A stretch of 64,000 nt of DNA. It comes from Patescibacteria group bacterium. GTDB lineage: Bacteria; Patescibacteriota; Patescibacteriia; UBA9570. The stretch spans positions 16,432 to 80,431 of the forward strand of contig JBAZWO010000006.1 in the NCBI GenBank assembly GCA_041660305.1, given 5' to 3'. This document shows, piece by piece, positions 28,784-44,898 of the stretch; positions within the stretch are counted from its first letter, which is position 1; each line of letters starts with the position of its first letter. The position numbers and the translations under genes were made by a program. The notes under the pieces are model-generated. The model ran no database searches and had not been told where the DNA came from. It saw only the letters and a program-made list of their open reading frames with translations.

Positions 28784-29476
28784 TCAGCAAAGATATTTAG
28801 ATAAGAACCTACTAATTTTACCAATATCGTTATTTGATTTTAATAATATAAAAGGTATACGCATTTTTTTTGCTACAGTTGCATCTCGTTTAATAGAATC
28901 ACCAATATACAAAACTTGACTAGGGTGCAAACGCATTTTTTGCAGTAATAGTTTCATGCCATGTAAAGCTGGTTTTTCATGTCCCGCTTCTTCAGAAGTT
29001 ACTATATAGGTGAAGTAGCTGGAAAGCTTGAGTTGTTTGATTTTATTTAGCTGAAGACTTGTTGTTAAGTCCGATAGAATAGCTAATTTTAAGTGGTGTT
29101 GTTGTAAATAATTTAGCAATGTTATTATATCGGGGCGTAATTTCATAGTTTTAAAATAAGCCCGCCAGAAAACTTGTTCAGCTTGCAGCGTTAATTGTGG
29201 CCTGGTTTGTTGATAGACCTGTTCAATAACATGCTGCAAATACAATAAACGTGAGTGTGATGCGGCTTGCCCATTAAGTTGTTTATGTATTTGCTTACGA
29301 GCTTTAGTGTAATACTGTTTAAGTAATAATGGGGTAACCTGTGTTTTTTTATTAAGCCAATGAATAACAGCTTGTTGACCGGCCAAGTTACATGGCGCAT
29401 AAGCGTAAAGGGTATTATCCAAATCAAGTATAACTGCTTTTACATTAATTTTAATATTTTTCCCATTGTTCAACAT
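28784..29476 (-). CDS. HAD-superfamily hydrolase/phosphatase
   Basis: Motif I is VILDLDNTLY. The later motifs are ILSDL and YIGDSIKRD. Confidence 0.8.
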   Translation of the reverse strand: MLNNGKNIKINVKAVILDLDNTLYAYAPCNLAGQQAVIHWLNKKTQVTPLLLKQYYTKARKQIHKQLNGQAASHSRLLYLQHVIEQVYQQTRPQLTLQAEQVFWRAYFKTMKLRPDIITLLNYLQQHHLKLAILSDLTTSLQLNKIKQLKLSSYFTYIVTSEEAGHEKPALHGMKLLLQKMRLHPSQVLYIGDSIKRDATVAKKMRIPFILLKSNNDIGKISRFLSKYLC

Positions 29477-30038
29477 AGTTTTGTGCCGTCATCACAGCAT
29501 TTAGAGGAAATTGTAATTGATGTAATTGTTTAATATAGTTAGGGATATCTTGCGGTCGACCCCAGCGTTCCGGGCATACTAAACAAGTTTTAAAACCTTG
29601 TAACTGTTTTATTATAGCGGCATCTAGTGGTAGGCGAGTGTTGGTATCTATCCATACCCAATCAGCTTTGCCTTTATAGTTTAGTACCGTTTCAATGACT
29701 TCATCTTCTGAATAACGCATAGCAATATTATGTATACCTTGTCTGGTAGCTTGATAAATATAAGAAAATTCAACATCAAGTAAAAAATATTTTTTTACTT
29801 GATACTGTTTGCACAAATCGAGTACTCGTTGTTCAATACCCGCTTCTTTGATATTAAGAATAATTCCGGCATGACGAAATTGTTTTAAATATTCTTCAAA
29901 ATCATCGCCAGAGGTAAAAGGTTCGTGGCTTAAATATAGTTTATTACCATTAGCGCGGATATCAATTTCAACACCATATTTAGGCGGGATGATTTTAAGT
30001 TGTGCAACGCTATTTACGCGATGAATGTAGATGTCCAT
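29451..30038 (-). CDS. hypothetical protein, weakly glycerophosphodiester-phosphodiesterase (GDPD)-like
   Basis: IHRVNS...GVEIDIR...LYLSHEPF resembles the GDPD HR..E.D...HD pattern. This is a weak, recollection-based assignment. Confidence 0.3.
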   Translation of the reverse strand: MDIYIHRVNSVAQLKIIPPKYGVEIDIRANGNKLYLSHEPFTSGDDFEEYLKQFRHAGIILNIKEAGIEQRVLDLCKQYQVKKYFLLDVEFSYIYQATRQGIHNIAMRYSEDEVIETVLNYKGKADWVWIDTNTRLPLDAAIIKQLQGFKTCLVCPERWGRPQDIPNYIKQLHQLQFPLNAVMTAQNYVEQWEKY

Positions 30039-30738
30039 GTAATTGAAAAATATACTTTATAGTTCGTAATATCGTTTTATATTTTGAGGAAAAACTAAAT
30101 GCCCACTTAGATTCACCGTATAAGCGCTTACTAAAGTTTACGGGGATGGTTTTAATAGTATAATCATTTTTTTTGGCTAAGTAAAGAGTATAAAGATCAA
30201 GCGAAAAATCAGTTGGAGGATTGATCATTTTATCCAAAAAAGTTTTATGAAACATTTTTGGCTGGCCATTAATATCATATAGTGCTGTTCTTAATACAAC
30301 ACTGGTAATAAGCGACATTCCAAACGTAAAAGCCCAATCTGTAAATTTTCGATTAATTCGTTTGCCTTTAATAATAATCTTGTCTGGAGTATTAATCTCT
30401 ACAAAGGCTCGGTAAGCAGTAAGTACATCAGCTGGATCTGTTTGCAGATCAGCATGTGTCCAGGCTAATACTTCACCGCTAGCTGCTTGTAAACCAGTCA
30501 TAATACCATGGCCATAACCAATATTTTTAAGCACAGTGACAACACGAGCAAAATTGTATTGGTGGTTTTTTAATTCCTCAGCGAATATAGAAGCCGATGC
30601 ATCCGTGGAACCATTATTTACTAAAATCACTTCAATGGGTTGTTGAACAATGATTGCGGCGAATTTTTTTAAAATCAATGGAATGTTTTTCGCTTCATTA
30701 TAACAAGGTACAATAATACTAAGTGCGTTCATAAACAT
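30010..30738 (-). CDS. glycosyltransferase family 2 (polyprenol-phosphate sugar synthase-like)
   Basis: I prefer the ATG at 30738 or 30732 (MFMNALSIIVPCYNEAKNI). It carries VNNGSTDAS and a THADLQ motif. Confidence 0.8.
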   Translation of the reverse strand: MFMNALSIIVPCYNEAKNIPLILKKFAAIIVQQPIEVILVNNGSTDASASIFAEELKNHQYNFARVVTVLKNIGYGHGIMTGLQAASGEVLAWTHADLQTDPADVLTAYRAFVEINTPDKIIIKGKRINRKFTDWAFTFGMSLITSVVLRTALYDINGQPKMFHKTFLDKMINPPTDFSLDLYTLYLAKKNDYTIKTIPVNFSKRLYGESKWAFSFSSKYKTILRTIKYIFQLHGHLHSSRK

Positions 30739-32296
30739 AAAAATTATTTGTTTCGAAGGTAACCTTATAGTGAAAAAATACATTTTTAACAAATATCCCA
30801 TCCGTTGTTAAGCGTTGGAGTATTTCATTAGATCCGGTATTTTTTTCTATTAATATTAATTTTGGTTGATAATTAATTAATTGTGTTTCATCTAAGTTTC
30901 CCCAAATTGGGTAAATTTTAATACCATTAAAAGGCGTAGGGTCAAAATAAACATAAGCGGTTTTTAATATGACTAGATTGTTTTTGTTTTGTTGATACAA
31001 CCATTGCTCAAACTGTTGTTTTGCTACAATCTTATTTTGAAAATTTGCGCTAGTTTCACGGCCAGCTATTTCAGCATATTGTGCAATGATTTTATCAACA
31101 TTAATACTAAATAATACTATAACAAAAATGATTAGACACATTTTTTCATACTTCTCATATTTTTTTAACCAAAATAATTCTTTGAAATTAATAGTAAATA
31201 TTCCAATCAATACAAATACAAAACTCGGAAACAGGTACCAGTTCCATAATTTATGAACAGTGATTATGATATAACTTGTATAACTGAACCATAAACAGAA
31301 CAGAAACAATAATCGATGATCATTATGTTTACTTGCTCTAATGCCTAGATAGATAAAAACGATTATGCTCAATATCAAAAAACTGGTAGGAAGAAAATCT
31401 TTGCTAATAATATCTGTATACCATGTTTGATAATTTACACCGGTAAATAAACCATTATGACCAGTGCGATTATCTTCCATAATTGTCTTGGTTACATTAA
31501 TATACCTTACCATAGCTGGTTTGCCACTGGCCAGTAATGTTGGGTTAGATATTAAGAATGTACCGCAAAATAGTAGAGCGGAAAATAACATAAGATAAAC
31601 AAATGTACCTAAAGATCGTTGCCAATAGACGATTAAAAGATAAAAAATAAATACAGGAACAAACAGTAATAATGATATTTTTAAACTAACCGCTATGCCA
31701 AGTAGAATTAGTGTAAAATAGACGTTACGTTTATTAAATGGATTTTTTAATAAATAATAAACACTGGCCGTACTAAAAGCCATGGTCATGAATTCTATAC
31801 TAAACGCTTTATAATAAAAATAAAAAGCCGGCATAGCTAAAATAGCTAAAGCCCCTAATACGGCATTTATGCGGCTAGCTCTTAATAACAGAATAATTTT
31901 ATATATAAAAAAAATAGTTACTCCTAACCATATTGACGATAACAAGCGCATCGTTAAAATTTCAGCAGGAAAAGACATAAAAAAATGTGGAATTAATCCA
32001 ATAGTGCCATAAACATACCAAAATAATGTTCCGTATCCCCAAGAATTATCTAGGTTTAAAAAAACGTGAGGATTATGAGCTTGCAATGGTTGATACCATG
32101 CACGATCTAAAAAATTTGTAAAAACCCATTCATCCAATGATAACACATTTAACATTGCGGCATCAGTTTTTACATACAGGTAGGCTGGCAAATTGATTGC
32201 CATACAAACAACTATAAAACTAATCAATATGAGAGCATCAAATTTTTTTATATTTTTTTTCAAATAAGCAATTACTCTAGTAACGAACGAAGACAT
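30719..32296 (-). CDS. GT-C-like polytopic membrane protein, paralogue 1 of a three-member family
   Basis: The ATG at 32296 (MSSFVTRV...) removes the 101-nt overlap of the track ORF. AAMLNVLSLDEWVF and GYGTLFWYVYG are shared with 32277-33845 and 37614-39215. Confidence 0.65.
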   Translation of the reverse strand: MSSFVTRVIAYLKKNIKKFDALILISFIVVCMAINLPAYLYVKTDAAMLNVLSLDEWVFTNFLDRAWYQPLQAHNPHVFLNLDNSWGYGTLFWYVYGTIGLIPHFFMSFPAEILTMRLLSSIWLGVTIFFIYKIILLLRASRINAVLGALAILAMPAFYFYYKAFSIEFMTMAFSTASVYYLLKNPFNKRNVYFTLILLGIAVSLKISLLLFVPVFIFYLLIVYWQRSLGTFVYLMLFSALLFCGTFLISNPTLLASGKPAMVRYINVTKTIMEDNRTGHNGLFTGVNYQTWYTDIISKDFLPTSFLILSIIVFIYLGIRASKHNDHRLLFLFCLWFSYTSYIIITVHKLWNWYLFPSFVFVLIGIFTINFKELFWLKKYEKYEKMCLIIFVIVLFSINVDKIIAQYAEIAGRETSANFQNKIVAKQQFEQWLYQQNKNNLVILKTAYVYFDPTPFNGIKIYPIWGNLDETQLINYQPKLILIEKNTGSNEILQRLTTDGIFVKNVFFHYKVTFETNNFYVYERT

Positions 32297-33845: not shown

Positions 33846-33892
33846 AAACAGTATTATACTTAATTTTAGAAAAATATGCTATAATCTGTTTT

Positions 33893-35584
33893 ATGATAAA
33901 TTTTTGGACAGGATTGTTGCCGGTTTTATTAATTCTTGCTTTATCAGGTTTATTCGTTATAGCCGGTTTAACAATCTATAGATATGGAATAATAGGGTAC
34001 AAGGAACATCCTTGGTCACTTCGCTTGGGATTAGGCTATTTTTTTGGCTTGGCTGTATTTCTTATAGTGTATCGTTTAGTAACGGCCTGGTTACAGCAAG
34101 CTAATACGGCTGCTAAAATTGGATTAATAGTGTGTGCAATTTTAGCTTTGTTGGAGTTAGTACGTTGGCGGAGTAAATATTTTATTTTTTTTGTAAAACA
34201 ACATTATTGGCAAATAATGTTAAGTGTTTTTTTAATCAGCGGTATTTCTGTTCTATTATTTTGTTTGTGGCTACCAAACTGTCCTTTACCGACGGATCCA
34301 TTTATACATTTCGGATCAATTCATAGTGGTCGTAATGTTAACATTGCTAAATATATCTATGATAACAATACTATTCCCGCATTAACACAAAATTATGGAC
34401 ATGCTCTTCTGGCCAGTATAGTACTTTGGTTTGGTTTTCAAACTCCATTTTCAGCGTTGTTTATATGGCTGGTAGTTTCTATGTGTTTTTATGCGTTTAT
34501 TGTGTACGGTTTTTTCCGCTGGTTTGATCTTAACATGCGTTTAAGTTATTTAGGTTTATTGATTGTTCTGGTTGGTAACACGGCTTTATCCTTTCTTGAT
34601 ATCGGTGTAATCGACTCTTACAGCCCATTAATTAGAACTGGTTATGTCGATACTATTTTGGCTATTGCGACTTTCTTTGGTTTTGTATTGTGGTTGAAAA
34701 ATATGTATAGTCAAACCACCATTTTACAGTATGTATTAGTACCAAGTATTTTTGGTTTTGTTTGGAATATGTTTGCCTCGCAAAATATTGTGATGGGCAT
34801 AGTAACATATGGGATAATGTTGATCGTTATTTTACGAAATAAAAAAATCTCATTTTATCGTATTAGTATTAGTGCACTTTTTTTTACCATGGCAGTGGGA
34901 TTAGGTAGTATGTATGGAGGCATGTTAACAATAAAGCAGTTTCAAGATGTAGTTCATGTCCCAGGCATTTTAACTGCTCCTTTAGCCAAGAATATTGTGA
35001 ATATTACTCCAGAACTCCCGTATCTATATTATGGCAGTGAATATCATTATTCGCCCTATCATTTTACCGTACCGCTTAATAATTTTTTTCACTATCAACT
35101 AAACAATGACGATGTATGGAAAATAGAGAATAATATTTGGTTGGCTTTACGAATCACTTTTTGGCCATTAGTAGGTTGTATTTTAACGGGCATATTATTA
35201 TATTTTCAAAAAACCAAAAAAACAAGCATTGATTGGAATACTAATGTAGTAAGCAAAATTAAGCACTTTTTATCAATTACATTAATCGTTTTTATAACAG
35301 GAGTAAGTATTGCATTTTGGTTCCAATTAGGAGATTTTAAATGGGAACTAACTCGTTTTATTATCCCGGCTTATGTATTTGGCATGTTTTTATTAGTCGT
35401 TAGTGGTTCTACTATATTAGGTCGTTTAAAACAAAAAAGGCAGCAAATATTTTTTTCAGTTATAATAACTTTTGTCATTTTAATTGGTCCGACCCGACAT
35501 ATACTAGAAATTGTTTATAGAAATATATGGTTGGATACCTTGGGAGGAATTGAAACAAGAATGGACTTATTTTTTCATCATTAA
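33893..35584 (+). CDS. large polytopic membrane protein, hypothetical (glycan assembly context)
   Basis: A 563-aa protein with at least 12 hydrophobic segments and no recognisable motif. Confidence 0.45.
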   Translation: MINFWTGLLPVLLILALSGLFVIAGLTIYRYGIIGYKEHPWSLRLGLGYFFGLAVFLIVYRLVTAWLQQANTAAKIGLIVCAILALLELVRWRSKYFIFFVKQHYWQIMLSVFLISGISVLLFCLWLPNCPLPTDPFIHFGSIHSGRNVNIAKYIYDNNTIPALTQNYGHALLASIVLWFGFQTPFSALFIWLVVSMCFYAFIVYGFFRWFDLNMRLSYLGLLIVLVGNTALSFLDIGVIDSYSPLIRTGYVDTILAIATFFGFVLWLKNMYSQTTILQYVLVPSIFGFVWNMFASQNIVMGIVTYGIMLIVILRNKKISFYRISISALFFTMAVGLGSMYGGMLTIKQFQDVVHVPGILTAPLAKNIVNITPELPYLYYGSEYHYSPYHFTVPLNNFFHYQLNNDDVWKIENNIWLALRITFWPLVGCILTGILLYFQKTKKTSIDWNTNVVSKIKHFLSITLIVFITGVSIAFWFQLGDFKWELTRFIIPAYVFGMFLLVVSGSTILGRLKQKRQQIFFSVIITFVILIGPTRHILEIVYRNIWLDTLGGIETRMDLFFHH

Positions 35585-36417
35585 TTAGCTTGATTCGCGA
35601 TATATTTTTGCCAGTACATGAGAGTAGCTAGATTATGAGGCAAAGGGTTTTTATTGCTTTGTTGATATTTGCAATAATTAAACCAACTCATAAATTCTTC
35701 TAAATCTTCAGGCGTACCCCATTGGCAGAATTGTTCAACTTCATAAATATGTACCGGTAATTTATCATGTACTAACAAGTTATAAACTAAACTAACATAA
35801 TATTCACCATTTAAATTAACATCCTCGTTTATTAGTTGTTGAAAATATTTTTTTACTAACGCACCAGATTGAAAATAATAAGTGCCATCCGATTGATAAG
35901 ATTGCATTTTATCTGCTGTCCAGGAATATTTTTCTCTAATTTCCAATAAATTTTTTTGAGCATCTACTTTACATGATGCATACAAGTTTGGCCCTAATAA
36001 GTGAGGATGAAAACCGATATAACAAGGTATAGCACCAGCGTATTTTTTTTCTAATACGTCTTTTTTGAAATTAGCATAATCCCAAACACAATTAAAATCA
36101 CAGTAATTTACTATAGTAGGTTCATTATCATCAATTGCTTCTAAGGCTTGTAATATTGCCCAAACTGGGCCTTTTTTTTGTGATTCAATGCCAATAATCT
36201 TGCCACTAGGCATAACTCTATTTAACTCTTTGCGTAAAGGTGTAGTGGCTAAATGATCATTATTACAGATAAATACAAAGTTTGTTTCTCCCGGAAATAA
36301 TTTAACAACATATTCAATAATTGGCTTATTATCTACCTTAATAAGTGGTTTAATTTCTTTGTATCCTTTGTGTATAAATCGACTACCTAAACCAGACATG
36401 GGGATAATGATTTGCAT
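35581..36417 (-). CDS. sugar-phosphate nucleotidyltransferase (NTP_transferase fold)
   Basis: I prefer the ATG at 36417, giving MQIIIPMSGLGSRF..KPLIKVDNKPII. It is paralogous in pattern to 44068-44898. Confidence 0.7.
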   Translation of the reverse strand: MQIIIPMSGLGSRFIHKGYKEIKPLIKVDNKPIIEYVVKLFPGETNFVFICNNDHLATTPLRKELNRVMPSGKIIGIESQKKGPVWAILQALEAIDDNEPTIVNYCDFNCVWDYANFKKDVLEKKYAGAIPCYIGFHPHLLGPNLYASCKVDAQKNLLEIREKYSWTADKMQSYQSDGTYYFQSGALVKKYFQQLINEDVNLNGEYYVSLVYNLLVHDKLPVHIYEVEQFCQWGTPEDLEEFMSWFNYCKYQQSNKNPLPHNLATLMYWQKYIANQAN

Positions 36418-36527
36418 AAGCATATCATAGCTAAACAAATATATTTTAACAAGACAATGCATAAAGAAATCTATTATTATTTGTTTAAGTATTGTATACT
36501 AATTTTAATATTATTATATGGTAAAAA

Positions 36528-37565: not shown

Positions 37566-37613
37566 TTGCAGGGTTTTAGTTTTAATTGTAAAAAACAGTA
37601 TAGAGCAATAGTT

Positions 37614-39215
37614 ATGTTAAAAAGATTTATTAAAAAAATAAAATCAGTCACAGCGTACAGAACGTTATTCATTTGTGTAATTTTATTTTGGGGGATAATA
37701 CTATTTTCTGTTTGGATTATTGATCTTAGATTTCCGCTTGCATTATTTGAGTATTTATCTTGGGATGAATATCAATATTTGCCAATATTAAACAATTACC
37801 AAAGTGTACTTATCAAACAAGGCGTGGTTGAATTTATATATACAAATGAACCATTTGGTTACGGAGCAATCTTTTGGCAAATATATGCTTTAGGGTCAAT
37901 TTGGCTCCATAATTTTTTTAATGGAAGTGATTCTTCTTTAATTATTTTTAATTTACGTTGTATTACTTTTATTTTTCAAGTTGCCTCTTTAACTCTTGTA
38001 ATGAAGATTTTAAAATTAATATATGTAAAAAATGTTTAACCGAACATAGCGGCATTATTTTTTTTAGCCCCAATGAGCGGGCTATTATTGTTATATAAAC
38101 CATTTAGTCCAGATTATTTAGCAACCCTTTTAATTTTATTAGCAGTTTTTTTATTAATAAAATCAATTATTAATTTGAAAAAAACAACTACTTTTTATGT
38201 AATAAGTTGCATTTGTTTTGGATTAGCTGTTGGTATCAAATTATTTGTTTTACCGCTAGTATTATTAATAATTGTACCTTTACTCTATCAACAAATTTTA
38301 TCATTACAAAATATCACAAAAAATATTAAAAAATTATTTAATGGCATAGTATATTTTATTGTTGGTTTTATTGCGGCCAATAGCTATATCATTCGTTATG
38401 GTTTTAAAAATTATAATGATAAATTAGAAGAACTAAATATAGCAGTAATATCACCTAATTTTCAACACGCCATCAAACCACTAGGAATAATTAGCAGAAT
38501 TCAGCATTGGATATATAATCCTGGAAAGACGTATTATGATATTAATACTATTGGAATGTCACATGAAATAATAAATATATTTTTATTTGTTGGATTCGCA
38601 ATATTATTAATCTATTTATTAATCAGAAATATAAAACAAAAAAATCAATTGTTTTATATGGGATTAATTATTGGTTTTAGCGGTGTTTCTTTGTTTATTA
38701 TTACAATAATAATAACTAATCGTGTTTGGATGTGGTATTTATTATCAGCGGTGTATGTAATGGCGATTGGTTTTGGAGTAGTTACTGTTTATTTAAATAA
38801 AAATAAGCCTGGTAAATACTTTATTATCATATTTTTATTATTACATTGGGTATTTATATTACCCGGCACCATCACAAAATACAAACAGTATCTTAATAGT
38901 CGCTTTGATAAAGAAACTATTTCTTATAATAATTTTTATATTAATTGCATTCTAAAACATCAAAAAGAGTTAACTACTTCAAGTGTACCCGGATCAATAG
39001 TTAAATTACATAGAACTCCAGTGCCTGATGCATTATTGCTTACCACTTGCTGGGGACAGACCATATCACCAGTCCCATGCTTAACGAATGTTACTACTCA
39101 TGTAATCCAATATAATACTTTACCTGAAAATGACAAAAATATATTATTAAATGCGGGCTTTGAAGAAATCAAATGTAGTGAACAATGGTCTATTTATCAA
39201 CGTGTATTACCATAA
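37614..39215 (+). pseudogene. GT-C-like membrane protein, paralogue 3, interrupted by a single in-frame TAA (38037-38039)
   Basis: Track ORFs 37566-38039 and 38073-39215 are in the same frame. Joined they give about 534-550 aa, matching paralogues 1 and 2, with LSWDEYQY and EPFGYGAIFWQIYALG motifs. The stop sits within a conserved TM region. Confidence 0.7.
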
Positions 39216-39239: not shown

Positions 39240-40040
39240 CTAGTGAATGTTTTTTCTATATTGTTCGCTTTCCATGTTCTGTAACTGGTAAATTTCATCT
39301 ACAGATAATGGTTTAATAGTTTTATTAAGTTTATTAATAGTATCTATAATATAGGCGTTGGCCGCAAATACTTCTTGAATACCAGGAGTAATGTTTTTAG
39401 TATTTAAAAATACAGCGGCATCGGGAAAAAGACAGGTAGTAGGTGCAATAATAGTTTTATAATCTACCGGTGAAAACTCTTTAAAATTAGGAAGATTAAT
39501 TTTTAAATAACGTTCTAGTTTTGCATTAATAGCTAATGTTAATTGTAGAGCTTCATTAGCATTATTACTACAAGTAATTAAGCCATGGTTGGCTAAAAAC
39601 AGTACCTTGGGATTATTATTTTCTTTTAGCTGTTCTTGAATAGCCCTGGCTAAGGCTTGGCCAGGAGTGTGGTAAGTAACAAATAGTGGTTTCAAATCAT
39701 CAAATAATTTATGTAGTATCTCAGTGCCATTAACCATACAGTTGAATACGTTTACATACACCGGATGAGTATGAATAGTAATGTTCGGTAACGAGAGATG
39801 CATCGGTAGCTCCATAGAAGGACGAATGGTTGCAGTAGATCCAAGAATTACTTGTGTTTTGCGATCAATAACAGCGTAACCATGATTGATGGTCATGTTT
39901 TTGAAAGTAGTACCAGAAGCCTTGATATATAACGCTGTATCATTTTTAACTGAAATATTGCCACCGCCACCTTGAATCATTGTTGGCAGTGAGCCAAGTT
40001 GATGAGACAGTTCTAATAATGTTGCTAATGTTTTGTCCAT
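39240..40040 (-). CDS. class II aldolase/adducin-family protein (aldolase, epimerase or dehydratase on a sugar phosphate)
   Basis: GGGGNISVK and the metal-binding IHTHPVY pattern. Confidence 0.75.
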   Translation of the reverse strand: MDKTLATLLELSHQLGSLPTMIQGGGGNISVKNDTALYIKASGTTFKNMTINHGYAVIDRKTQVILGSTATIRPSMELPMHLSLPNITIHTHPVYVNVFNCMVNGTEILHKLFDDLKPLFVTYHTPGQALARAIQEQLKENNNPKVLFLANHGLITCSNNANEALQLTLAINAKLERYLKINLPNFKEFSPVDYKTIIAPTTCLFPDAAVFLNTKNITPGIQEVFAANAYIIDTINKLNKTIKPLSVDEIYQLQNMESEQYRKNIH

Positions 40041-40044
40041 GAAG

Positions 40045-42165
40045 TTATTCGGGCAGTTTATTTAATTCGCTATAAAAATAAAGTACAAATAGTTGTTCAA
40101 TGCCATTGTAGTTATCATCCCACACTGGGCTGCCATAAGTTAGTTCCTCCAAATTAGGTATTAGCACATAAGCAACGTTTCTTATGTCTTGTTTGCCTAG
40201 TATGCCGGCAAAACGAATAGTTTGATGGTGTAAATTAGGTTCATACCAATGTTCCACTTTTATTGTGGGGTAATTCGCTAACTGTTCAATTAGTGGATCT
40301 AGTTGAATAGAATTATCACAACTAATATCCAGTACTAACACTGGTTCAATGCCTTCTTGTAAGGGTTGTGTTGGTGTTAGAGAAATCACAACATCAGCAA
40401 AAGCACGTTGTGGACGAATATATTGATTAGCATCAGCTTCGCGTGCTCCTAATTGTTTTAGTATTTCTTCTTTACTACGTTGTCTATCTTTCTGATCGCG
40501 CATTAATTTCCAATGTTTACGTAAAGCTTCATCTGGTTCTACATAGATTTTAATATCAAAAATAGAACGCATTTTACTTAAATAAAAGGGATGTAACCCA
40601 ACATAGATAATTACTTTATTAGTTGTAATATTATTTAAGGAAGTAAATTTACCGGTGGCGTGATTGTAAGATGAACGCTTAATATTGGCACCGGTTTTTA
40701 ATATAGCAGTTTGTAGTAGCTCTTTGTATAAATTGTTACTTTTTGGATTTAAATGCGTAAATTGTTGCCAATTAGTATTATTGCGTTCCCATTTATGGGC
40801 ATCGTCTCCTTCAATACAAATTGCATTATTATTACCAAATAATTGTACCAGTTTTTTAGCTAAAGTGTTTTTACCAGCGCCAGAATCTCCGCCAATGCCA
40901 ACTACCAATGGCTTGTCAGCTATTTTGTATTCTAAATTGCTTTTCACTCCCACGCGATAAATCCACACGGCATTCATAATTATCGATGCTACTAGTAAAG
41001 TAAATATTAAATTAAGTAGTAATGGAATATTTAAACCAGGAATGGCCAAAACAAAACCAGAATTGATTAATTGAAAACTTGAAGTAAACGCTGCATCCGG
41101 ACTTAATACAAAATATAATAGATAAGCAATATTTAACGACCAAAAACTTATTTTTGGAATATTCTGATATTTGGCAAAGAAATATACATAAAAAGGAATG
41201 GACCAATAAAACCAGCCCGGCATTGGTGGAACAAAAATTACAAACACCGTAAATAACAAACCTAAAATAAGTAAAAAAGCATCTTTATTAAGTTTATGGT
41301 ATGGAAAAAAATTAAAAAACAAAATAAAAATAGCGGTAACAGCTAATAGTAATTGTAAATTATTATGTAGATAAGGTAAGGAAACTAAAAATATTTTTGC
41401 AGATTCATCGGTACCAAACACGCTTTTTATAAAACCATTAGAAAACAAATAAGGCGTGATAATAAGACCGAAGGCGGCTAATCCGGCACAACAATAACCA
41501 AACGCATGTTTTAAGGAATAGCGATTAACAAAAAAGTAAATAAAATAAAACGGCAGAACAACTAGTAAATGGGTTTTGGTAGCAATTCCTAAACCAAGTA
41601 ATAACACAGCTGGAAGTGGCTTCTTATTAAACAGAAAAATTAACGAAATGAACAAAATAGCCATTGGCATTACATCTAGTTGTCCATGAACATAATTAAT
41701 GAAAAATAAAATTGGAGAAGTCCAATATAACCATAGCACTTGTTTTTCTTTGGTTTCAAGCCATTTAGCTAATACTATATAAATTGCAGTATCTGCTAAT
41801 AATATAGGTAAACGCATCATTAATAAATTCCCAAATTGTACTACAGACCCGTCTAGATTTACAAACGGTATAAAAAGTAATCGAGCTAAAGTAAAAATCC
41901 ACAACATGACTGGTGGGTAAGGGAAAGCTCCTGGATAACCTTGCTGTACAAAAAATTCATAGGGATTATGAAAACCAGAGGTAACAAAATAATTTACAAA
42001 CGGAATAAAGCCTTTCACTAAAAAATCGGAACCAAGTAGGCTGCCGGCAATAATTTTAATACCCAAAATAATTAAGAACCATTTGTTGAACAATAATTTT
42101 CTCAACGGTATGTGATAGCGTTCTTCAATTTTTGTGAGAGTGATCATGGTGCTCAATAAATACAA
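40045..42165 (-). CDS. fusion protein: N-terminal polytopic GT-C/DUF2029-like membrane domain + C-terminal phosphoribulokinase/uridine-kinase-family P-loop kinase
   Basis: The membrane part (about aa 1-410) carries GAFPYPPVMLW. The kinase part has P-loop GIGGDSGAGKNTLAKKL, IEGDDAHKWER (PRK-like) and KIYVEPDEALRKHWKLMRD...YIRPQ..ADVVI. Confidence 0.7.
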   Translation of the reverse strand: MYLLSTMITLTKIEERYHIPLRKLLFNKWFLIILGIKIIAGSLLGSDFLVKGFIPFVNYFVTSGFHNPYEFFVQQGYPGAFPYPPVMLWIFTLARLLFIPFVNLDGSVVQFGNLLMMRLPILLADTAIYIVLAKWLETKEKQVLWLYWTSPILFFINYVHGQLDVMPMAILFISLIFLFNKKPLPAVLLLGLGIATKTHLLVVLPFYFIYFFVNRYSLKHAFGYCCAGLAAFGLIITPYLFSNGFIKSVFGTDESAKIFLVSLPYLHNNLQLLLAVTAIFILFFNFFPYHKLNKDAFLLILGLLFTVFVIFVPPMPGWFYWSIPFYVYFFAKYQNIPKISFWSLNIAYLLYFVLSPDAAFTSSFQLINSGFVLAIPGLNIPLLLNLIFTLLVASIIMNAVWIYRVGVKSNLEYKIADKPLVVGIGGDSGAGKNTLAKKLVQLFGNNNAICIEGDDAHKWERNNTNWQQFTHLNPKSNNLYKELLQTAILKTGANIKRSSYNHATGKFTSLNNITTNKVIIYVGLHPFYLSKMRSIFDIKIYVEPDEALRKHWKLMRDQKDRQRSKEEILKQLGAREADANQYIRPQRAFADVVISLTPTQPLQEGIEPVLVLDISCDNSIQLDPLIEQLANYPTIKVEHWYEPNLHHQTIRFAGILGKQDIRNVAYVLIPNLEELTYGSPVWDDNYNGIEQLFVLYFYSELNKLPE

Positions 42166-42544
42166 CTAATTTTAGACCAATAAAGTTAGTGATTGTAGAT
42201 AGCCCAATTGCAAATACATTAGCCAATAACGGATTAAAGCGCAATACATCTACTAATAAAGCAACTAAGAGTAAACTTAGTACTAAAGAAATAAGATACA
42301 CGGTAATGTAAATAACAAATTCACGGCGTTTCTGGTTATGGGATTTTTCTGTCGCAAATGTCCAATTACGGTTCAAATAATATCCTAATATTAGTCCAGT
42401 AATATAGCCAATACCACTCGCGACTACATAGTTTATTTGAATTACCGAGTAATTCAAATAAAATACAGTATAATTTAACACAGTACACAAACCACCTACT
42501 ACTAAAAATTTTACTAATTGGTTTATAAATTTTTTATTAATCAC
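42125..42544 (-). CDS. GtrA-family membrane protein (polyprenol-phosphate sugar translocation-associated)
   Basis: A 139-aa protein with 4 TM segments and LVKFLVVGGLCTVLNY typical of GtrA. Confidence 0.8.
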   Translation of the reverse strand: MINKKFINQLVKFLVVGGLCTVLNYTVFYLNYSVIQINYVVASGIGYITGLILGYYLNRNWTFATEKSHNQKRREFVIYITVYLISLVLSLLLVALLVDVLRFNPLLANVFAIGLSTITNFIGLKLVVFIEHHDHSHKN

Positions 42545-42603: not shown

Positions 42604-43224
42604 ATGAATTATCCATATAAATTAGGGGTAGGGTTATTACCCACAGTAAGTTCTCAAAATAAAATATATCAATTAGTTAATGAATTAAAGAAAACGATAC
42701 CGCTAGCATTTGCTGCCCAGTCTGATGTTAGCATTTCTCACTTAACGTTATTTCAAGGTAAGTTCGAATTCGAACAAGTTGTTCATAAGGTAATTGAACA
42801 ATTAGAAGCCCCAAAAAACATCAATCAATTAATGGTGAAGAATTTGAGTATCTGGGCAGAAAAAATTATTTTTCTTGATTTTTATAATACAGCTGTATCT
42901 CAACAATTTCATGAACAAATATTTAACATATTATTTCCAATATGCGAAGGTAAATCTGCTGATCCGCAAGCTTTTACGGACATTAGTCAAGATGAACAAA
43001 CTAGTTTTGATAAAATCGGTTATCCATTTTCTTTAAAAGCTTATAAACCGCACATTACATTAGCACACATTAAAGTGGATCAGATTAACAAACCAATATT
43101 ACTACCAATTCCAGATTTTAAGATAGTTGAATTTGAATCCTTAGTGGTTTACAAGGTAGAAGAATTAGGTGCGTGCCGTGAATTTATTTATAAACGGTTG
43201 ATTAATAATTCTGCTGGTACGTGA
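42604..43224 (+). CDS. 2H phosphoesterase superfamily protein (LigT/cyclic phosphodiesterase-like)
   Basis: Two H-x-T-x motifs, SHLTLF and PHITLA, at a spacing compatible with the 2H fold. Confidence 0.55.
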   Translation: MNYPYKLGVGLLPTVSSQNKIYQLVNELKKTIPLAFAAQSDVSISHLTLFQGKFEFEQVVHKVIEQLEAPKNINQLMVKNLSIWAEKIIFLDFYNTAVSQQFHEQIFNILFPICEGKSADPQAFTDISQDEQTSFDKIGYPFSLKAYKPHITLAHIKVDQINKPILLPIPDFKIVEFESLVVYKVEELGACREFIYKRLINNSAGT

Positions 43225-44021
43225 GATAGAATTTCATCTTTTGTAAACACTAGCGAAGCAATATAACCATTAAGATTATAAGGTTCATCATAACCTTCAC
43301 TATCTGGTCGATTAAATGTAAAATCATTGCCTTTAAGATCGCAAATGAATCCGCCATAAGCTTTAAGAATTGGCTCTGCCATAGCAATATCCCAATCTTT
43401 GGAATAGTTGTAGTTCATAATTACTAAATTAGTCTGGTCGGCTAACAATGCAGCGATTGAAGCGCCAGAACCACCATCGTAATATAGTTGTGTTGTTAAC
43501 CCTAATTTATTTCCTAAATTATAATAAAAATGTTCTAATATTTTATTTGGATCTAATTTACGTACCCAACCGACCAGCTTAGAACGGGATGAGATATTGG
43601 TAGTAATCTGATCACTGCGCCATAATTTATCTACTCCTGGTAAATAAATGAGCCCAGCAATAGATTTATAGGTACTATTTGGTTGGCGTTGTAACAAGGC
43701 GGCGTTGACAGCATAACCATCTACCAAACCAGCGCAAAATTCATCAGTACCATCTACAGGGTCAATTTGCCAAATTAAATCATGTTTAAAACGATTCTCA
43801 TATTTTTGTTCTTCAGAATATGAACCAGGAAACCGAGGTCTAATTCTATCTAAAATATATTTACTAGCCGCCACATCAGCTTCGGTTACTATATCTCGAA
43901 ATTTCTTTGGTATACCTTTTTGTTTGCCAGTCACTTTTCCAAATCTCGGCAAAATCTCTTGTTTTGCTGCGGCACGAACCAGATTGGTCATGTAGTCTAA
44001 TTCATATTTTATATCAAGCAT
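43188..44021 (-). CDS. inositol monophosphatase / CysQ-family phosphatase
   Basis: The WQIDPVDGTDEF motif, DWDIAMAEPIL, and an upstream EAD segment. Confidence 0.8.
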   Translation of the reverse strand: MLDIKYELDYMTNLVRAAAKQEILPRFGKVTGKQKGIPKKFRDIVTEADVAASKYILDRIRPRFPGSYSEEQKYENRFKHDLIWQIDPVDGTDEFCAGLVDGYAVNAALLQRQPNSTYKSIAGLIYLPGVDKLWRSDQITTNISSRSKLVGWVRKLDPNKILEHFYYNLGNKLGLTTQLYYDGGSGASIAALLADQTNLVIMNYNYSKDWDIAMAEPILKAYGGFICDLKGNDFTFNRPDSEGYDEPYNLNGYIASLVFTKDEILSHVPAELLINRL

Positions 44022-44067: not shown

Positions 44068-44898
44068 ATGTGCCATATGGCAAACATCATTCCTATGGCC
44101 GGTATCGGTTCACGTTTTTCCGAAGCCGGGTATTTACTACCCAAAGCCTTAATCCCAGTTTCCGGTAAACCAATGATTACTCGGGTAATCGAAGCTTTGC
44201 CACCAGCGGAAAAAAATATTTTTATTGTACGCCAAGAGCACATTAATCAATATGGTATTGATATGCTCATTAAACAATTACTACCGCAAGCGATTGTAAT
44301 TCCAGTAGAGAAAACTACCGAGGGACAAGCTTGTACGACTATGCTAGCAATGCCTTATCTTGAGCCAAATGATGAAATGTTTATTGCAGCTTGTGATAAT
44401 AGCTTTGTCTATAATCGTAAACGCTATGCGCAACTTACTGCCGATTCAACAATTGACGCGATTATTTGGACATTTACTCAAGAAAAATTACTAGTTCAAA
44501 AACCAACTGCCTGGGGTTGGGTAAAGTTAGCTAGTGATGGTTTAACGATTGATGATATGTCGGTTAAAGTGCCAGTATCTGATAATCCGTTTAACGATCA
44601 TGCGGTAGTGGCTACTTTTTATTTTAAAAAAGCCAGTGATTTTAAAGTGGCCTATGATTTAATGATTCAAGATAATTATCGTATTAATAATGAATTTTAT
44701 GTAGATGCTATGCCGATATTCTACAAAAAACTAGATAAACGAAGTGTGATGTTTGATGTAGATTTATATGTGGGTTGGGGCAAACCGCAAGATTTATACG
44801 AATATCAACTGTGGGAATATGTCTGTGAGCATAATCGTCCAGCGCCCGATGCTGCTAAGCTACCATTATGGCGACAGTTTTTTAAGCAGTTAAAGTGA
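44068..44898 (+). CDS. sugar-phosphate nucleotidyltransferase (NTP_transferase fold)
   Basis: IIPMAGIGSRFSEAGYLLPKALIPVSGKPMI. The ATG at 44077 is an alternative start. Confidence 0.7.
   Translation: MCHMANIIPMAGIGSRFSEAGYLLPKALIPVSGKPMITRVIEALPPAEKNIFIVRQEHINQYGIDMLIKQLLPQAIVIPVEKTTEGQACTTMLAMPYLEPNDEMFIAACDNSFVYNRKRYAQLTADSTIDAIIWTFTQEKLLVQKPTAWGWVKLASDGLTIDDMSVKVPVSDNPFNDHAVVATFYFKKASDFKVAYDLMIQDNYRINNEFYVDAMPIFYKKLDKRSVMFDVDLYVGWGKPQDLYEYQLWEYVCEHNRPAPDAAKLPLWRQFFKQLK

What the first reader, a model, noticed from the sequence alone, without database searches (positions are those of the whole stretch)
39240..42165. GT-C/DUF2029-like membrane domain fused to a phosphoribulokinase/uridine-kinase-family P-loop kinase, next to a class II aldolase
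The 706-aa protein has about 410 aa of polytopic membrane domain carrying GAFPYPPVMLW, the YPP motif typical of GT87/DUF2029-type GT-C enzymes. This is followed by a soluble kinase with GIGGDSGAGKNTLAKKL, IEGDDAHKWER and ..YVEPDEALRKHWKLMRD..YIRPQ..ADVVI, which is the PRK/uridine kinase family signature.

I know of no characterised protein combining these two modules. The adjacent co-oriented gene (39240-40040) is a class II aldolase-family enzyme. That family includes ribulose-5-P 4-epimerase and fuculose-P aldolase, so its substrates are the kind of ketose phosphates that PRK-type kinases handle. A GtrA gene overlaps the 5' end.

One possibility is a membrane-anchored machine that phosphorylates a sugar or polyprenol-linked intermediate (or a glycan terminus, by analogy with the WbdD kinase) and transfers it outside the membrane.
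Basis: partly seen in the sequence, partly recalled or inferred. Interest (0 to 1): 0.6.

Follow-up and report, generated by a model that had tools for sequence, protein, structure and literature searches.

The report
Membrane glycosyltransferase fused to phosphoribulokinase
A membrane sugar-transferase fused to a complete Calvin-cycle-type kinase (phosphoribulokinase) sits at the centre of an uncharacterised eight-gene cassette found in hundreds of bacterial and archaeal species, which most likely builds a five-carbon sugar from ribulose 5-phosphate and attaches it to a cell-surface glycan.

Summary
The ORF at 40045-42165(-) encodes a roughly 12-helix membrane domain joined to a soluble kinase. 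It is flanked by a co-oriented class II aldolase gene and an overlapping GtrA gene.

**Kinase.** It is a whole phosphoribulokinase, not a uridine kinase. PDB E-values are 1e-37 against 3e-10, and the fold match reaches TM 0.8 over about 300 residues. Every PRK catalytic and Ru5P-binding residue is invariant in 81 of 81 homologues.

**Fusion.** It is not an artefact. At least 542 species-level genomes encode it, spanning Patescibacteria, DPANN archaea, Bacteroidota, Firmicutes and Proteobacteria. This membrane subfamily almost never occurs without the kinase.

**Cassette.** The fusion is the hub of a conserved set of genes:
- a HAD phosphatase, whose closest curated family is haloarchaeal RuBP 5-phosphatase;
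- a class II aldolase-family enzyme;
- an unannotated, highly conserved GDPD-like barrel;
- two nucleotidyltransferases;
- a soluble GT2;
- GtrA.

Rosetta-stone fusions link the parts: GT-C–PRK–aldolase, HAD–aldolase, NTP–NTP–GT2 and GtrA–GT-C–PRK.

**Best reading.** Ru5P → RuBP → Ru1P → activated pentose → polyprenyl-P-sugar → flipped → transferred outside by the GT-C half. The sugar's identity and the middle steps are inferred. No paper in the searched library describes this system.

The parts
40045..42165 (-). GT-C-like membrane domain fused to a complete phosphoribulokinase. 706 aa from the TTG start; 700 aa from the ATG at 42147, as annotated by NCBI.
   Evidence: ORF. 100% identical to P0001. 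AF2 model pLDDT 90, pTM 0.87. The same architecture is present in all 80 related loci.
40930..42165 (-). Membrane half, aa 1-412. About 12 TM helices with long conserved loops predicted to face outside. Conserved positions: FPYPP 81-85, D125, HGQLD 160-164, K197, PPMPGWxxW 312-321.
   Evidence: DSSP and hydropathy with the positive-inside pattern. Homologues hit the GT-C Pfam families GT87 (13/36), Alg6_Alg8 (5), ALG3 (4) and PMT_2 (1). D125, D164, K197 and W321 are invariant in 80-81 of 81. No sequence hit to the PDB.
40048..40929 (-). Cytoplasmic phosphoribulokinase half, aa 413-706. P-loop at 423-434. Catalytic and Ru5P-site residues: D454, H457, R461, Y500, H502, K553, R556, D557, R561.
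   Evidence: phmmer against the PDB gives PRKs at 1.8e-37 to 2.7e-27 and uridine kinases at about 3e-10. Foldseek matches whole PRKs with TM(target) 0.76-0.80 over 300-310 columns. The residues map onto published PRK active-site residues and are 81/81 invariant.
39240..40040 (-). Class II aldolase-family, Zn-dependent enzyme acting on a ketose 1-phosphate; reaction type unknown.
   Evidence: PF00596 1.5e-23. FucA-like phosphate site, catalytic Glu77 and His90/92/152 are invariant in 65 cassette homologues. Present in 65/81 loci and adjacent in 43. Fused to the kinase in L008, L016 and L017.
42125..42544 (-). GtrA-family small membrane protein, a putative flippase for the polyprenyl-phosphate sugar.
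   Evidence: PF04138 7e-28. In 26/81 loci as a separate gene, and fused N-terminally to the GT-C–PRK protein in others.
28784..29476 (-). HAD phosphatase, proposed to be a RuBP 5-phosphatase giving ribulose 1-phosphate.
   Evidence: HAD_2 2e-23. Best NCBIfam hit is NF053830, ribulose-1,5-bisphosphate 5-phosphatase, at 2.3e-47 and 162 bits against a cut-off of 330. The same model is the top hit for five cassette HADs from other phyla. Present in 53/81 loci. Fused to the aldolase in L067.
29451..30038 (-). 195-aa cytoplasmic protein of an unannotated family with a GDPD/PLC-like TIM-barrel fold; role unknown.
   Evidence: No Pfam or NCBIfam hit. 1981 homologues at 55-73% identity. AF2 pLDDT 96. 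Foldseek top hits are glycerophosphodiesterases at 2e-6, TMq 0.69-0.76. H6-R7, E24-x-D26 and H38 are invariant. Present in 59/81 loci.
30010..30801 (-). Soluble GT2, a putative polyprenyl-phosphate glycosyltransferase and the GtrB/Ppm1-type member of the cassette.
   Evidence: PF00535 7e-19. Best NCBIfam hits are ArnC 1.3e-16, PgfS and PpgS. Median 47% identity to cassette GT2s of other loci, and no TM segment. GT2 is present in 63/81 loci. Fused to the two nucleotidyltransferases in L036 and L061.
35581..36462 (-). Sugar-phosphate nucleotidyltransferase, paralogue 1.
   Evidence: NTP_transf_3 and NTP_transferase. It matches the N-terminal half of the tandem 548-aa NTPx2 proteins of other cassettes.
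44068..44898 (+). Sugar-phosphate nucleotidyltransferase, paralogue 2.
   Evidence: NTP_transf_3 3.5e-9. It matches the C-terminal half of the tandem NTPx2 proteins. Two paralogues or their fusion occur in nearly every mapped locus.

Best explanation
The gene encodes the hub enzyme of a self-contained, three-component extracytoplasmic glycosylation system of the GtrA/GT2/GT-C type. The system carries its own pathway for making the sugar donor from ribulose 5-phosphate.

**Proposed sequence**
1. The cytoplasmic PRK half phosphorylates Ru5P at C1 to give RuBP.
2. The cassette HAD phosphatase removes the 5-phosphate to give ribulose 1-phosphate. This frees O5, so the pentulose can close into a furanose ring.
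3. The Zn class II aldolase-family enzyme and the GDPD-like barrel remodel this ketose 1-phosphate. The reactions could be epimerisation, isomerisation or phosphate migration, and are unknown.
4. The paired nucleotidyltransferases make an NDP-pentose.
5. The soluble GT2 transfers the sugar to polyprenyl phosphate.
6. GtrA flips the lipid-linked sugar.
7. The GT-C half of the same fusion protein transfers it to a surface glycan. In this window that glycan is probably the product of the surrounding ABC-transporter-dependent polysaccharide locus.

**Shown here**
- The architecture, its conservation and its spread.
- The PRK identity of the kinase and its intact active site.
- Cassette membership and the gene fusions.
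- The family assignment of each partner.

**Inferred**
- Every substrate and product.
- The order of the steps between Ru1P and the NDP-sugar.
- The identity of the sugar and of the acceptor.
- The orientation of the GT-C active site.
For: **Kinase is a PRK**
- PDB E-values are 1.8e-37 to 2.7e-27 for PRKs and about 3e-10 for uridine kinases.
- NCBIfam gives PRK07429 at 1.2e-55 and udk at 2e-19.
- Foldseek aligns about 300 residues to whole PRKs, TM 0.76-0.80.
- D454, H502, R461, Y500, R556, D557 and R561 correspond to CrPRK D57, H105, R64, Y103, R159, D160 and R164. All are 81/81 invariant.

**The fusion is real and nearly obligate**
- All 80 loci carry it.
- The membrane half searched alone finds almost only proteins of 660-850 aa.

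**Cassette membership**
- Aldolase in 65 of 81 loci.
- GT2 in 63.
- GDPD-like protein in 59.
- HAD in 53.
- Tandem NTPx2 in 37, and separate NTP genes in 36.
- GtrA in 26, plus the fused cases.
- Nearly all lie on one strand.

**Fusions**
- GT-C–PRK–aldolase in L008, L016 and L017.
- NTP–NTP–GT2 in L036 and L061, and HAD–aldolase in L067.
- GtrA–GT-C–PRK.

**HAD and aldolase**
- The closest curated family of the HAD is RuBP 5-phosphatase, in 6 of 6 cassettes tested.
- A HAD RuBP phosphatase and a FucA-type aldolase form an operon acting on RuBP → Ru1P in haloarchaea (PMC9700705).
- The aldolase keeps its Zn ligands, catalytic Glu and ketose-1-P phosphate site.

**GT2 and context**
- The GT2 resembles polyprenyl-P glycosyltransferases such as ArnC, PgfS and PpgS.
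- The window holds an ABC-2 transporter and many glycosyltransferases.
- The Azospirillum copy lies next to an ABC transporter ATP-binding protein/permease gene pair and GDP-fucose genes.
Against: - No biochemical data exist for any member.
- The PRK half scores below NCBI's PRK cut-off (189 against 236 bits), because only the first 200 model positions match by sequence.
- The HAD (162 against 330 bits) and the aldolase (37 against 300 bits) are far below the equivalog cut-offs of the haloarchaeal enzymes.
- Ribulose 1-phosphate carries its phosphate on a non-anomeric carbon. An ordinary nucleotidyltransferase and GT2 cannot use it directly, so at least one unexplained reaction is required.
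- If the aldolase-family enzyme is a plain aldolase, it would destroy the pentose, giving DHAP and glycolaldehyde.
- The window protein itself misses the GT87 gathering score.
- No invariant acidic residue lies in the first outside loop, where many GT-C enzymes keep their catalytic Asp.
- I could not obtain a structural match of the membrane half to a solved GT-C enzyme.
Confidence: 0.5

Rival explanations
1. The kinase phosphorylates a polyprenol-linked intermediate, the polyprenol itself or a glycan terminus (as WbdD does), and the membrane half then exports or transfers the phosphorylated unit.
For: The kinase is tethered to the membrane directly after the last TM helix. The fusion with a lipid-sugar-using fold and with GtrA suggests lipid-linked substrates.
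Against: All residues that bind the sugar phosphate of Ru5P in PRKs are invariant. The cassette carries a RuBP-phosphatase-like HAD and a ketose-1-phosphate-type aldolase, both of which act on soluble sugars and both of which are fused to each other or to the kinase in some genomes. From general knowledge, WbdD's kinase has a protein-kinase-like fold, not the PRK fold.
Confidence: 0.12
2. PRK, HAD and aldolase form a catabolic or bypass route, Ru5P → RuBP → Ru1P → DHAP + glycolaldehyde. This would be a PRK-fed version of the haloarchaeal non-carboxylating pentose bisphosphate pathway. The route would either supply a C2 or C3 building block for a glycan substituent or merely be co-located with a conventional GtrABC-type system that uses a common NDP-hexose.
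For: The HAD plus FucA-type pair does exactly this in haloarchaea. The HAD's best family hit is that phosphatase. The aldolase keeps all aldolase catalytic residues, and its nearest curated relatives are rhamnulose-1-P aldolase domains.
Against: A catabolic trio has no reason to be fused to a GT-C enzyme in hundreds of species, nor to be invariably accompanied by two nucleotidyltransferases, a GT2 and a GDPD-like protein. The core cassette has no reductase or other enzyme to use DHAP or glycolaldehyde. The aldolase has its own invariant C-terminal extension (D207, E259, R262), which suggests a different reaction.
Confidence: 0.2
3. The PRK-like half is a regulatory ATP or sugar-phosphate sensor, or a nucleoside (uridine) kinase that supplies nucleotides. 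It would control the GT-C half and make no pathway intermediate.
For: Databases call the protein 'uridine kinase'. The P-loop reads GKN, GKH or GKD instead of GKS/T in 24 of 81 members.
Against: The uridine-kinase models score far lower (74 bits against a cut-off of 180; PDB 3e-10). The catalytic Asp/His dyad and the Lys/Arg/Asp cluster are 81/81 invariant, which is not expected of a degenerate sensor. Fusions and synteny with RuBP- and Ru1P-type enzymes indicate metabolic flux.
Confidence: 0.08

Closest known systems
Three-component extracytoplasmic glycosylation systems: GtrA/GtrB/GtrC of Shigella and Salmonella, and the Citrobacter youngae O1/O2 pentofuranose system with its PPPRS, MATE flippase and GT136 GT-C enzyme (PMC11127046)
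   Same: The logic is the same: a cytoplasmic enzyme loads a sugar on polyprenyl phosphate, a small flippase moves it, and a polytopic GT-C enzyme adds it to a finished glycan outside the membrane. GtrA, a soluble GT2 and a GT-C-like domain are all present here. The Citrobacter system likewise adds pentoses and uses auxiliary epimerases.
   Different: Here the GT-C enzyme is fused to a soluble kinase. The cassette also brings five further cytoplasmic enzymes: PRK, HAD, an aldolase-family enzyme, a GDPD-like protein and two nucleotidyltransferases. The Citrobacter system takes its pentose from PRPP through a polyprenyl phosphoribose synthase (by my recollection a UbiA-type enzyme), not from Ru5P through RuBP. 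No such synthase is among the conserved cassette members.
Class II (archaeal, cyanobacterial and plant type) phosphoribulokinase, for example PDB 6kev, 5b3f, 9qko
   Same: The whole fold matches (TM 0.76-0.80). The P-loop, the catalytic Asp/His dyad and the Ru5P-binding Arg, Tyr and Arg/Asp/Arg residues are all conserved.
   Different: The domain is anchored to a 12-helix membrane domain. It is found in organisms with no sign of a Calvin cycle and sits in a glycan-synthesis cassette. It lacks the regulatory Cys pairs: the positions read G-A-G-K and I-E-G-D in the alignment. It falls below the NCBIfam PRK cut-off.
Haloarchaeal non-carboxylating pentose bisphosphate pathway: RuBP 5-phosphatase (HAD) plus Ru1P aldolase (FucA type) (PMC9700705)
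   Same: The pairing is the same: a HAD phosphatase with a class II aldolase-family enzyme downstream of RuBP. The HAD's best curated match is that phosphatase.
   Different: In haloarchaea RuBP comes from nucleosides through R15P isomerase, and the pathway is catabolic. Here RuBP would come from a PRK, and the pair is embedded in a glycan-modification cassette. Both proteins are well below the equivalog cut-offs. The aldolase-family protein has an extra conserved C-terminal region.
NDP-heptose biosynthesis (GmhA, HldE/HddA kinase, GmhB HAD phosphatase, HldC/HddC nucleotidyltransferase); comparison from general knowledge
   Same: The chemical logic is the same: kinase at C1 of a sugar ω-phosphate, then a bisphosphate, then a HAD phosphatase removing the ω-phosphate, then a sugar 1-phosphate, then a nucleotidyltransferase.
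   Different: The kinase fold differs (PRK rather than ribokinase or GHMP). The substrate is a ketopentose, so the 1-phosphate is not anomeric and further unknown steps are needed.
GT87 (PimE) and the other polyprenyl-phosphate-sugar-dependent GT-C enzymes of mycobacterial cell-wall synthesis
   Same: Both have a polytopic N-terminal module. The F-P-Y-P-P motif lies at the start of the GT87 Pfam model, and there are weak GT87 hits.
   Different: No invariant acidic residue lies in the first outside loop. The window protein is below the GT87 threshold. No GT87 member is known to be fused to a kinase.

Membership tests
Phosphoribulokinase (EC 2.7.1.19), PRK/uridine-kinase superfamily | Pfam PF00485 domain above the gathering score | tested here: met
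   117.8 bits against a cut-off of 22, aa 421-600. 36/36 homologues match.
Phosphoribulokinase (EC 2.7.1.19), PRK/uridine-kinase superfamily | Catalytic Asp/His dyad (CrPRK D57/H105) and the Ru5P-binding residues R64, Y103, R159, D160, R164 | tested here: met
   The ungapped alignment to 6kev, combined with the published residue roles, gives D454, H502, R461, Y500, R556, D557 and R561. All are 81/81 invariant.
Phosphoribulokinase (EC 2.7.1.19), PRK/uridine-kinase superfamily | Complete PRK fold, including the C-terminal sheet that uridine kinases lack | tested here: met
   Foldseek aligns 300-310 columns to 9qkp, 9qko and 5b3f with TM(target) 0.76-0.80. Uridine kinases align over only 183-191 columns.
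Phosphoribulokinase (EC 2.7.1.19), PRK/uridine-kinase superfamily | NCBIfam PRK model score above the curated cut-off | tested here: not met
   NF005655 scores 188.9 bits against a cut-off of 236, with only model positions 5-200 of 326 matched. NF011997 scores 45.5 against 362.
Phosphoribulokinase (EC 2.7.1.19), PRK/uridine-kinase superfamily | ATP-dependent phosphorylation of Ru5P to RuBP | not testable with these tools
   Needs an enzyme assay.
Uridine/cytidine kinase | Score above the udk equivalog cut-off, and a closer match to uridine kinases than to PRKs | tested here: not met
   NF004018 scores 74 bits against 180, and TIGR00235 scores 70 against 220. PDB uridine kinases give about 3e-10 against 1e-37 for PRKs.
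GT-C glycosyltransferases (GT87/DUF2029 in particular) | Pfam GT87 (PF09594) at or above the gathering score | tested here: inconclusive
   The window protein scores 21.1-22.6 bits against a cut-off of 25. Homologues P0016, P0100 and P0110 score 25.7-28.2 bits. 13/36 match GT87 at E<=0.01. Others match Alg6_Alg8, ALG3 or PMT_2, which are all GT-C families.
GT-C glycosyltransferases (GT87/DUF2029 in particular) | Polytopic membrane module with a long first extracytoplasmic loop carrying short juxtamembrane helices, and a cytoplasmic N-terminus | tested here: met
   The AF2 secondary structure gives TM1 at 28-43, helices at 47-62 and 68-74 in a 40-residue loop, then TM2. The K/R distribution fits N-in, C-in with 12 TM helices. 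Orientation is an inference, not a measurement.
GT-C glycosyltransferases (GT87/DUF2029 in particular) | Conserved catalytic acidic residue in the first extracytoplasmic loop | tested here: not met
   No invariant D or E lies between aa 44 and 84. The invariant acidic residues are D125 (TM3) and D164 (second outside loop).
GT-C glycosyltransferases (GT87/DUF2029 in particular) | Structural superposition on a solved GT-C enzyme | tested here: inconclusive
Three-component (GtrA / polyprenyl-P GT2 / GT-C) glycosylation system | The three components are co-encoded | tested here: met
   GtrA at 42125-42544. Cassette GT2 at 30010-30801 with ArnC, PgfS and PpgS-type hits. The GT-C-like half. Co-occurrence in 63/81 loci for GT2, and 26 loci plus the fusions for GtrA.
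Three-component (GtrA / polyprenyl-P GT2 / GT-C) glycosylation system | Transfer of a single sugar from polyprenyl-P-sugar to a glycan outside the membrane | not testable with these tools
   Needs genetics and glycan analysis.
Non-carboxylating pentose bisphosphate pathway enzymes (RuBP 5-phosphatase, Ru1P aldolase) | Equivalog-level match to NF053830 and NF053831 | tested here: not met
   The HAD scores 161.6 bits against a cut-off of 330, although this is its best family; five other cassette HADs score 140-193 bits. The aldolase scores 37.3 bits against 300.
Non-carboxylating pentose bisphosphate pathway enzymes (RuBP 5-phosphatase, Ru1P aldolase) | HAD and FucA-type genes linked in one operon | tested here: met
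   They are co-directional neighbours in most cassettes and fused in L067, as with the operon reported. In this window they lie 10 kb apart.
Glycerophosphodiester phosphodiesterase / PLC-like superfamily (for the 195-aa partner) | TIM-barrel fold with H-R, E-x-D and H catalytic motifs | tested here: met
   Foldseek gives GDPDs at 2e-6, TMq 0.69-0.76. H6, R7, E24, D26 and H38 are invariant. There is no sequence-level hit to Pfam or the PDB. PGAP names the plasmid homologues 'PI-PLC/GDPD family'.

The most novel reading that the evidence does not exclude
The cassette is a previously unknown route to a nucleotide-activated and then lipid-linked ketopentofuranose or pentofuranose.

- PRK and HAD together move the phosphate from C5 to C1 of ribulose, so that the sugar can cyclise.
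- One nucleotidyltransferase and the GDPD-like enzyme then shift the phosphate onto the anomeric O2, through an NDP-1-ketose and a 1,2-cyclic phosphate.
- The second nucleotidyltransferase makes the true glycosyl donor.

If so, phosphoribulokinase and RuBP have a widespread function outside the Calvin cycle, in cell-surface glycan synthesis across bacteria and archaea including CPR and DPANN lineages. The PRK used in autotrophy may then share ancestry with, or have been recruited from, this glycan pathway.
Probability: 0.15. Interest if true: 0.9.

Novelty: new variant of a known kind. Interest (0 to 1): 0.74.

Why it matters
- **A new role for PRK and RuBP.** They are textbook markers of the Calvin cycle, and PRK genes in non-autotrophs have been a puzzle. 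This is a PRK with an intact active site, hard-wired to a glycosyltransferase in at least several hundred species from many phyla, including host-associated Bacteroides and the minimal-genome CPR and DPANN lineages. It points to a function for RuBP in building cell surfaces.
- **Better annotation.** It would correct the annotation of a family now labelled 'uridine kinase', 'zeta toxin family' or 'hypothetical'.
- **New enzymology.** The cassette includes two enzymes with no predictable reaction: the GDPD-like barrel and the extended aldolase-family protein.
- **A probable new lipid-linked pentose donor.**
- **Direct testability.** The whole cassette sits on a 33-kb E. coli plasmid.

Tried and rejected
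**Rejected explanations**
- *Uridine-kinase reading.* The scores are far weaker than for PRK.
- *Artefactual fusion or frameshift.* All 80 related loci carry the uninterrupted fusion, and the membrane subfamily is almost never found alone.
- *LigT-like (42604-43224) and IMPase-family (43188-44021) genes as part of the system.* They recur in only 1-2 of 80 loci.
- *GT2 at 44914-45684 as the cassette GT2.* The one at 30010-30801 is the orthologue.

**Searches that led nowhere**
- Sequence-level family assignment of the 195-aa protein. Pfam, NCBIfam and a PDB profile search returned only noise.
- Phage carriage. There were no tblastn hits in 50,697 phage records.
- Literature. No paper in the library couples PRK or uridine kinase with GT-C, GtrA, DUF2029 or GT87.

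Full report
**1. The observation**

The window holds a 706-codon ORF at 40045-42165 on the minus strand. The co-oriented 266-aa ORF at 39240-40040 lies four bases downstream. A 139-aa ORF at 42125-42544 overlaps its 5' end.

Pfam assigns the three proteins as follows:
- PRK/uridine-kinase family, aa 421-600 of the large protein, 7e-34;
- class II aldolase, 1.5e-23;
- GtrA, 7e-28.

The membrane half scores just under the GT87 threshold, at 21-23 bits against a cut-off of 25.

An identical protein is on record from a Patescibacteria MAG. It is annotated from the ATG six codons downstream of the TTG, giving 700 aa. The description in the finding is therefore accurate.

**2. The fusion is real, old and nearly obligate**

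A homology search returned 331 proteins. The listed ones cover more than 92% of the query at 36-62% identity. They come from Patescibacteria, Bacteroidota, Melainabacteria, Aenigmarchaeota and Woesearchaeota. Some carry GtrA fused in front.

All 80 loci fetched carry the uninterrupted two-domain protein. They include:
- Rickettsiales, Bdellovibrionota, Myxococcota, Omnitrophota, Elusimicrobia and Acidobacteriota;
- Paenibacillus, Virgibacillus and Acetobacter lovaniensis;
- Bacteroides and Lachnospiraceae MAGs.

I then searched the membrane half alone against 1.84 billion representative proteins. It gave 814 hits, 203 of them below 1e-30. Virtually every full-size hit is 660-850 aa, so this membrane subfamily hardly exists without the kinase.

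**3. The kinase is a phosphoribulokinase**

Sequence evidence:
- Against solved structures, PRKs score 1.8e-37 to 2.7e-27 and uridine kinases about 3e-10.
- NCBIfam gives 1.2e-55 for a PRK model and 2e-19 for udk. The PRK score of 189 bits stays under the 236-bit cut-off, because only the first 200 model positions match.

Structural evidence:
- An AlphaFold model built on 36 homologues has pLDDT 90 and pTM 0.87.
- Its soluble part superposes on entire PRKs over 300-310 columns, TM 0.76-0.80 normalised to the PRK. The targets are the 'cyanobacteria-specific' PRK 9qkp/9qko and the archaeal 5b3f.
- Uridine kinases align over only about 185 columns.
- The last 100 residues, which no sequence model covered, are thus the PRK C-terminal sheet.

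Residue evidence. The published active-site residues are:
- the catalytic Asp57/His105 dyad;
- the Ru5P phosphate ligands Arg64 and Tyr103, and the Arg159/Asp160/Arg164 loop.

Through the ungapped alignment to 6kev these correspond to D454, H502, R461, Y500, R556, D557 and R561. All of them, with K432, H457 and K553, are invariant in 81 of 81 fused proteins that are only 31-62% identical overall.

I conclude that the domain is a catalytically competent kinase for Ru5P or a very similar 2-ketose ω-phosphate. The activity itself is inferred.

**4. The membrane half**

The model shows about twelve TM helices. Short Lys/Arg-bearing loops lie on one side. Long conserved loops lie on the other: FPYPP in loop 1, YWxSP...HGQLD in loop 2 and PPMPGWxxW in loop 5. 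This pattern places the N-terminus and the kinase in the cytoplasm.

Homologues give weak hits only to GT-C families: GT87 in 13 of 36, Alg6/Alg8 in 5, ALG3 in 4 and PMT_2 in 1. D125, D164, K197 and W321 are invariant.

Two caveats apply:
- No invariant acidic residue lies in the first outside loop.
- I could not obtain a structural match to a solved GT-C enzyme, because the relevant libraries were unavailable and the listed Foldseek hits were all kinases.

Membership in the GT-C superfamily is probable. GT87 membership is not established.

**5. The cassette**

I clustered the neighbours of the 81 loci. This shows a conserved, co-directional set:

| Member | Loci of 81 | Window coordinates |
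|---|---|---|
| Aldolase-family protein | 65 (adjacent in 43) | 39240-40040 |
| GT2, about 240 aa | 63 | 30010-30801 |
| Unannotated protein, about 200 aa | 59 | 29451-30038 |
| HAD phosphatase | 53 | 28784-29476 |
| Nucleotidyltransferase paralogues, fused in tandem | 37 | (separate in this window) |
| Nucleotidyltransferase paralogues, separate genes | 36 | 35581-36462 and 44068-44898 |
| GtrA | 26, plus fusions | 42125-42544 |

Gene fusions tie the parts together:
- GT-C–PRK–aldolase in Saccharibacteria (L016), Kaiserbacteria (L017) and Paceibacteria (L008), 1058-1073 aa;
- NTP–NTP–GT2 in Omnitrophota and Melainabacteria;
- HAD–aldolase in a myxobacterium;
- GtrA–GT-C–PRK in several archaea and bacteria.

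In this window the cassette is split into four pieces within 16 kb. It lies inside a large polysaccharide locus with an ABC-2 transporter pair, GT4, GT2 and GT11 enzymes and other GT-C-like proteins.

**6. What the partners say**

*HAD.* Its best curated match is the haloarchaeal ribulose-1,5-bisphosphate 5-phosphatase, at 2.3e-47. The same model is top for five further cassette HADs from other lineages (four bacterial genera and an uncultured archaeon). It scores 50-60 bits above the next family in most of them, though always below the equivalog cut-off.

In haloarchaea that phosphatase is strictly specific for RuBP. It yields ribulose 1-phosphate, which cyclises. It is encoded in an operon with a FucA-type Zn aldolase that cleaves Ru1P.

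*Aldolase-family protein.* The cassette protein keeps the FucA phosphate site, the catalytic Glu and the three Zn histidines. It also has an invariant C-terminal extension of its own.

*GT2.* It has no TM segment and resembles polyprenyl-phosphate glycosyltransferases such as ArnC, PgfS and PpgS.

*The 195-aa protein.* It has about 2000 homologues at 55-73% identity. No Pfam or NCBIfam family matches it, and there is no sequence match in the PDB. Its model (pLDDT 96) is nevertheless a GDPD/PLC-like barrel, with the H-R, E-x-D and H motifs invariant.

**7. Most likely mechanism**

The arrangement follows the logic of NDP-heptose synthesis (general knowledge): kinase at C1 of a sugar ω-phosphate, HAD removal of the ω-phosphate, then nucleotidyl transfer. 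It is grafted onto a GtrA/GT2/GT-C three-component system.

The proposed sequence is:
1. Ru5P → RuBP (PRK half).
2. RuBP → Ru1P (HAD).
3. Ru1P → remodelled pentose phosphate (aldolase-family enzyme and GDPD-like enzyme).
4. → NDP-sugar (nucleotidyltransferases).
5. → polyprenyl-P-sugar (GT2).
6. → flipped across the membrane (GtrA).
7. → transferred to a surface glycan by the GT-C half.

The first and last enzymes share one polypeptide. This could build a membrane-bound metabolon or couple the supply of a potentially dead-end metabolite (RuBP) to demand.

The weak point is the middle of the pathway. The phosphate of Ru1P is not anomeric, so an unknown isomerisation or phosphate migration is needed. 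A plain aldolase reaction would destroy the pentose.

I put 0.5 on this overall scheme. The rivals are:
- a catabolic or C2/C3-supplying branch, 0.2;
- a regulatory or nucleoside-kinase role, 0.08.

**8. Comparison with what is known, and novelty**

The system works like the three-component glycosylation systems, and especially like the pentofuranose-adding system of Citrobacter. It differs from them in its donor pathway and in the kinase fusion.

The kinase half meets every residue-level and fold-level test for PRK that I could apply. It fails the NCBIfam score cut-off.

The HAD and aldolase resemble the haloarchaeal RuBP/Ru1P enzymes but are not equivalogs of them.

Eight literature searches found no description of the fusion or the cassette. 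Databases label it 'uridine kinase', 'zeta toxin family', 'DUF2029' or 'hypothetical'.

I rate it a new variant of a known kind of system, with new enzymology inside it.

**9. A practical lead**

The complete cassette lies on a 33-kb IncR plasmid of an E. coli stool isolate, NZ_CP145712.1, next to IS26. The gene order is NTPx2, GtrA, GT2, GDPD-like, GT-C–PRK, HAD, aldolase.

It is also on a second E. coli plasmid, making 2 of 5426 complete genomes. A third copy is on an Azospirillum brasilense plasmid, beside an ABC transporter ATP-binding protein/permease pair and GDP-fucose genes.

This makes the hypothesis directly testable.

Noticed in passing
window 29451-30038 (-): A 195-aa protein of an unannotated family with about 2000 homologues, 55-73% identical across bacterial and archaeal phyla and all labelled 'hypothetical'. 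No Pfam or NCBIfam family matches. The AF2 model has pLDDT 96 and folds as a short GDPD/PLC-like TIM barrel with invariant H-R, E-x-D and H motifs. It is one of the most conserved members of the cassette, and its reaction is unknown.
   Followed up: yes
L081 (E. coli plasmid NZ_CP145712.1) 6022-14984; also L082 (Azospirillum brasilense plasmid p5) 4516-11900: The complete cassette (NTPx2, GtrA, GT2, GDPD-like, GT-C–PRK, HAD, aldolase) is carried on a 33-kb IncR E. coli plasmid beside IS26. It is also on one other E. coli plasmid, making 2 of 5426 complete genomes. The cassette is therefore mobile and available in a tractable host.
   Followed up: partly
L016, L017, L008; L036 12782-15121; L061 12837-15137; L067 10532-12925: Rosetta-stone fusions among cassette members: GT-C–PRK–aldolase (1058-1073 aa), nucleotidyltransferase–nucleotidyltransferase–GT2 (766-779 aa), and HAD–aldolase.
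   Followed up: partly
window 37566-39215 (+): Two ORFs (157 aa and 380 aa) of a polytopic membrane protein are in the same frame, separated only by one TAA at 38037-38039. This could be a pseudogene, a sequencing error or read-through. Related proteins occur in only one other locus (L001).
   Followed up: partly
window 42604-43224 (+) and 43188-44021 (-): A LigT-like 2H phosphoesterase (weak hit, below the threshold) and an inositol-monophosphatase/CysQ-family phosphatase converge and overlap by 37 nt, directly beside GtrA. They are not part of the conserved cassette, but both recur in L051 (Micrarchaeia).
   Followed up: partly
window 45685-48723 (+); 50819-52914 (+); 54905-55735 (+): A 1012-aa GT4–FkbM-methyltransferase–GT4 fusion, an ABC-2 permease/ATPase pair and a GT11 fucosyltransferase-family gene. 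The region looks like an ABC-transporter-dependent polysaccharide locus, which is the likely source of the acceptor glycan.
   Followed up: no
window 40864-40899 (-), aa 423-434 of the fusion protein: The Walker A motif reads GAGKNT. The residue after the Lys is S or T in 57 of 81 homologues, but H in 14, N in 5 and D in 5. This variation is unusual for a P-loop kinase.
   Followed up: no
window 30719-35584: Three further large polytopic membrane proteins (552, 522 and 563 aa) lie between the two halves of the cassette. Two give weak PMT_2 (GT-C) hits. They may be additional extracytoplasmic glycosyltransferases.
   Followed up: no
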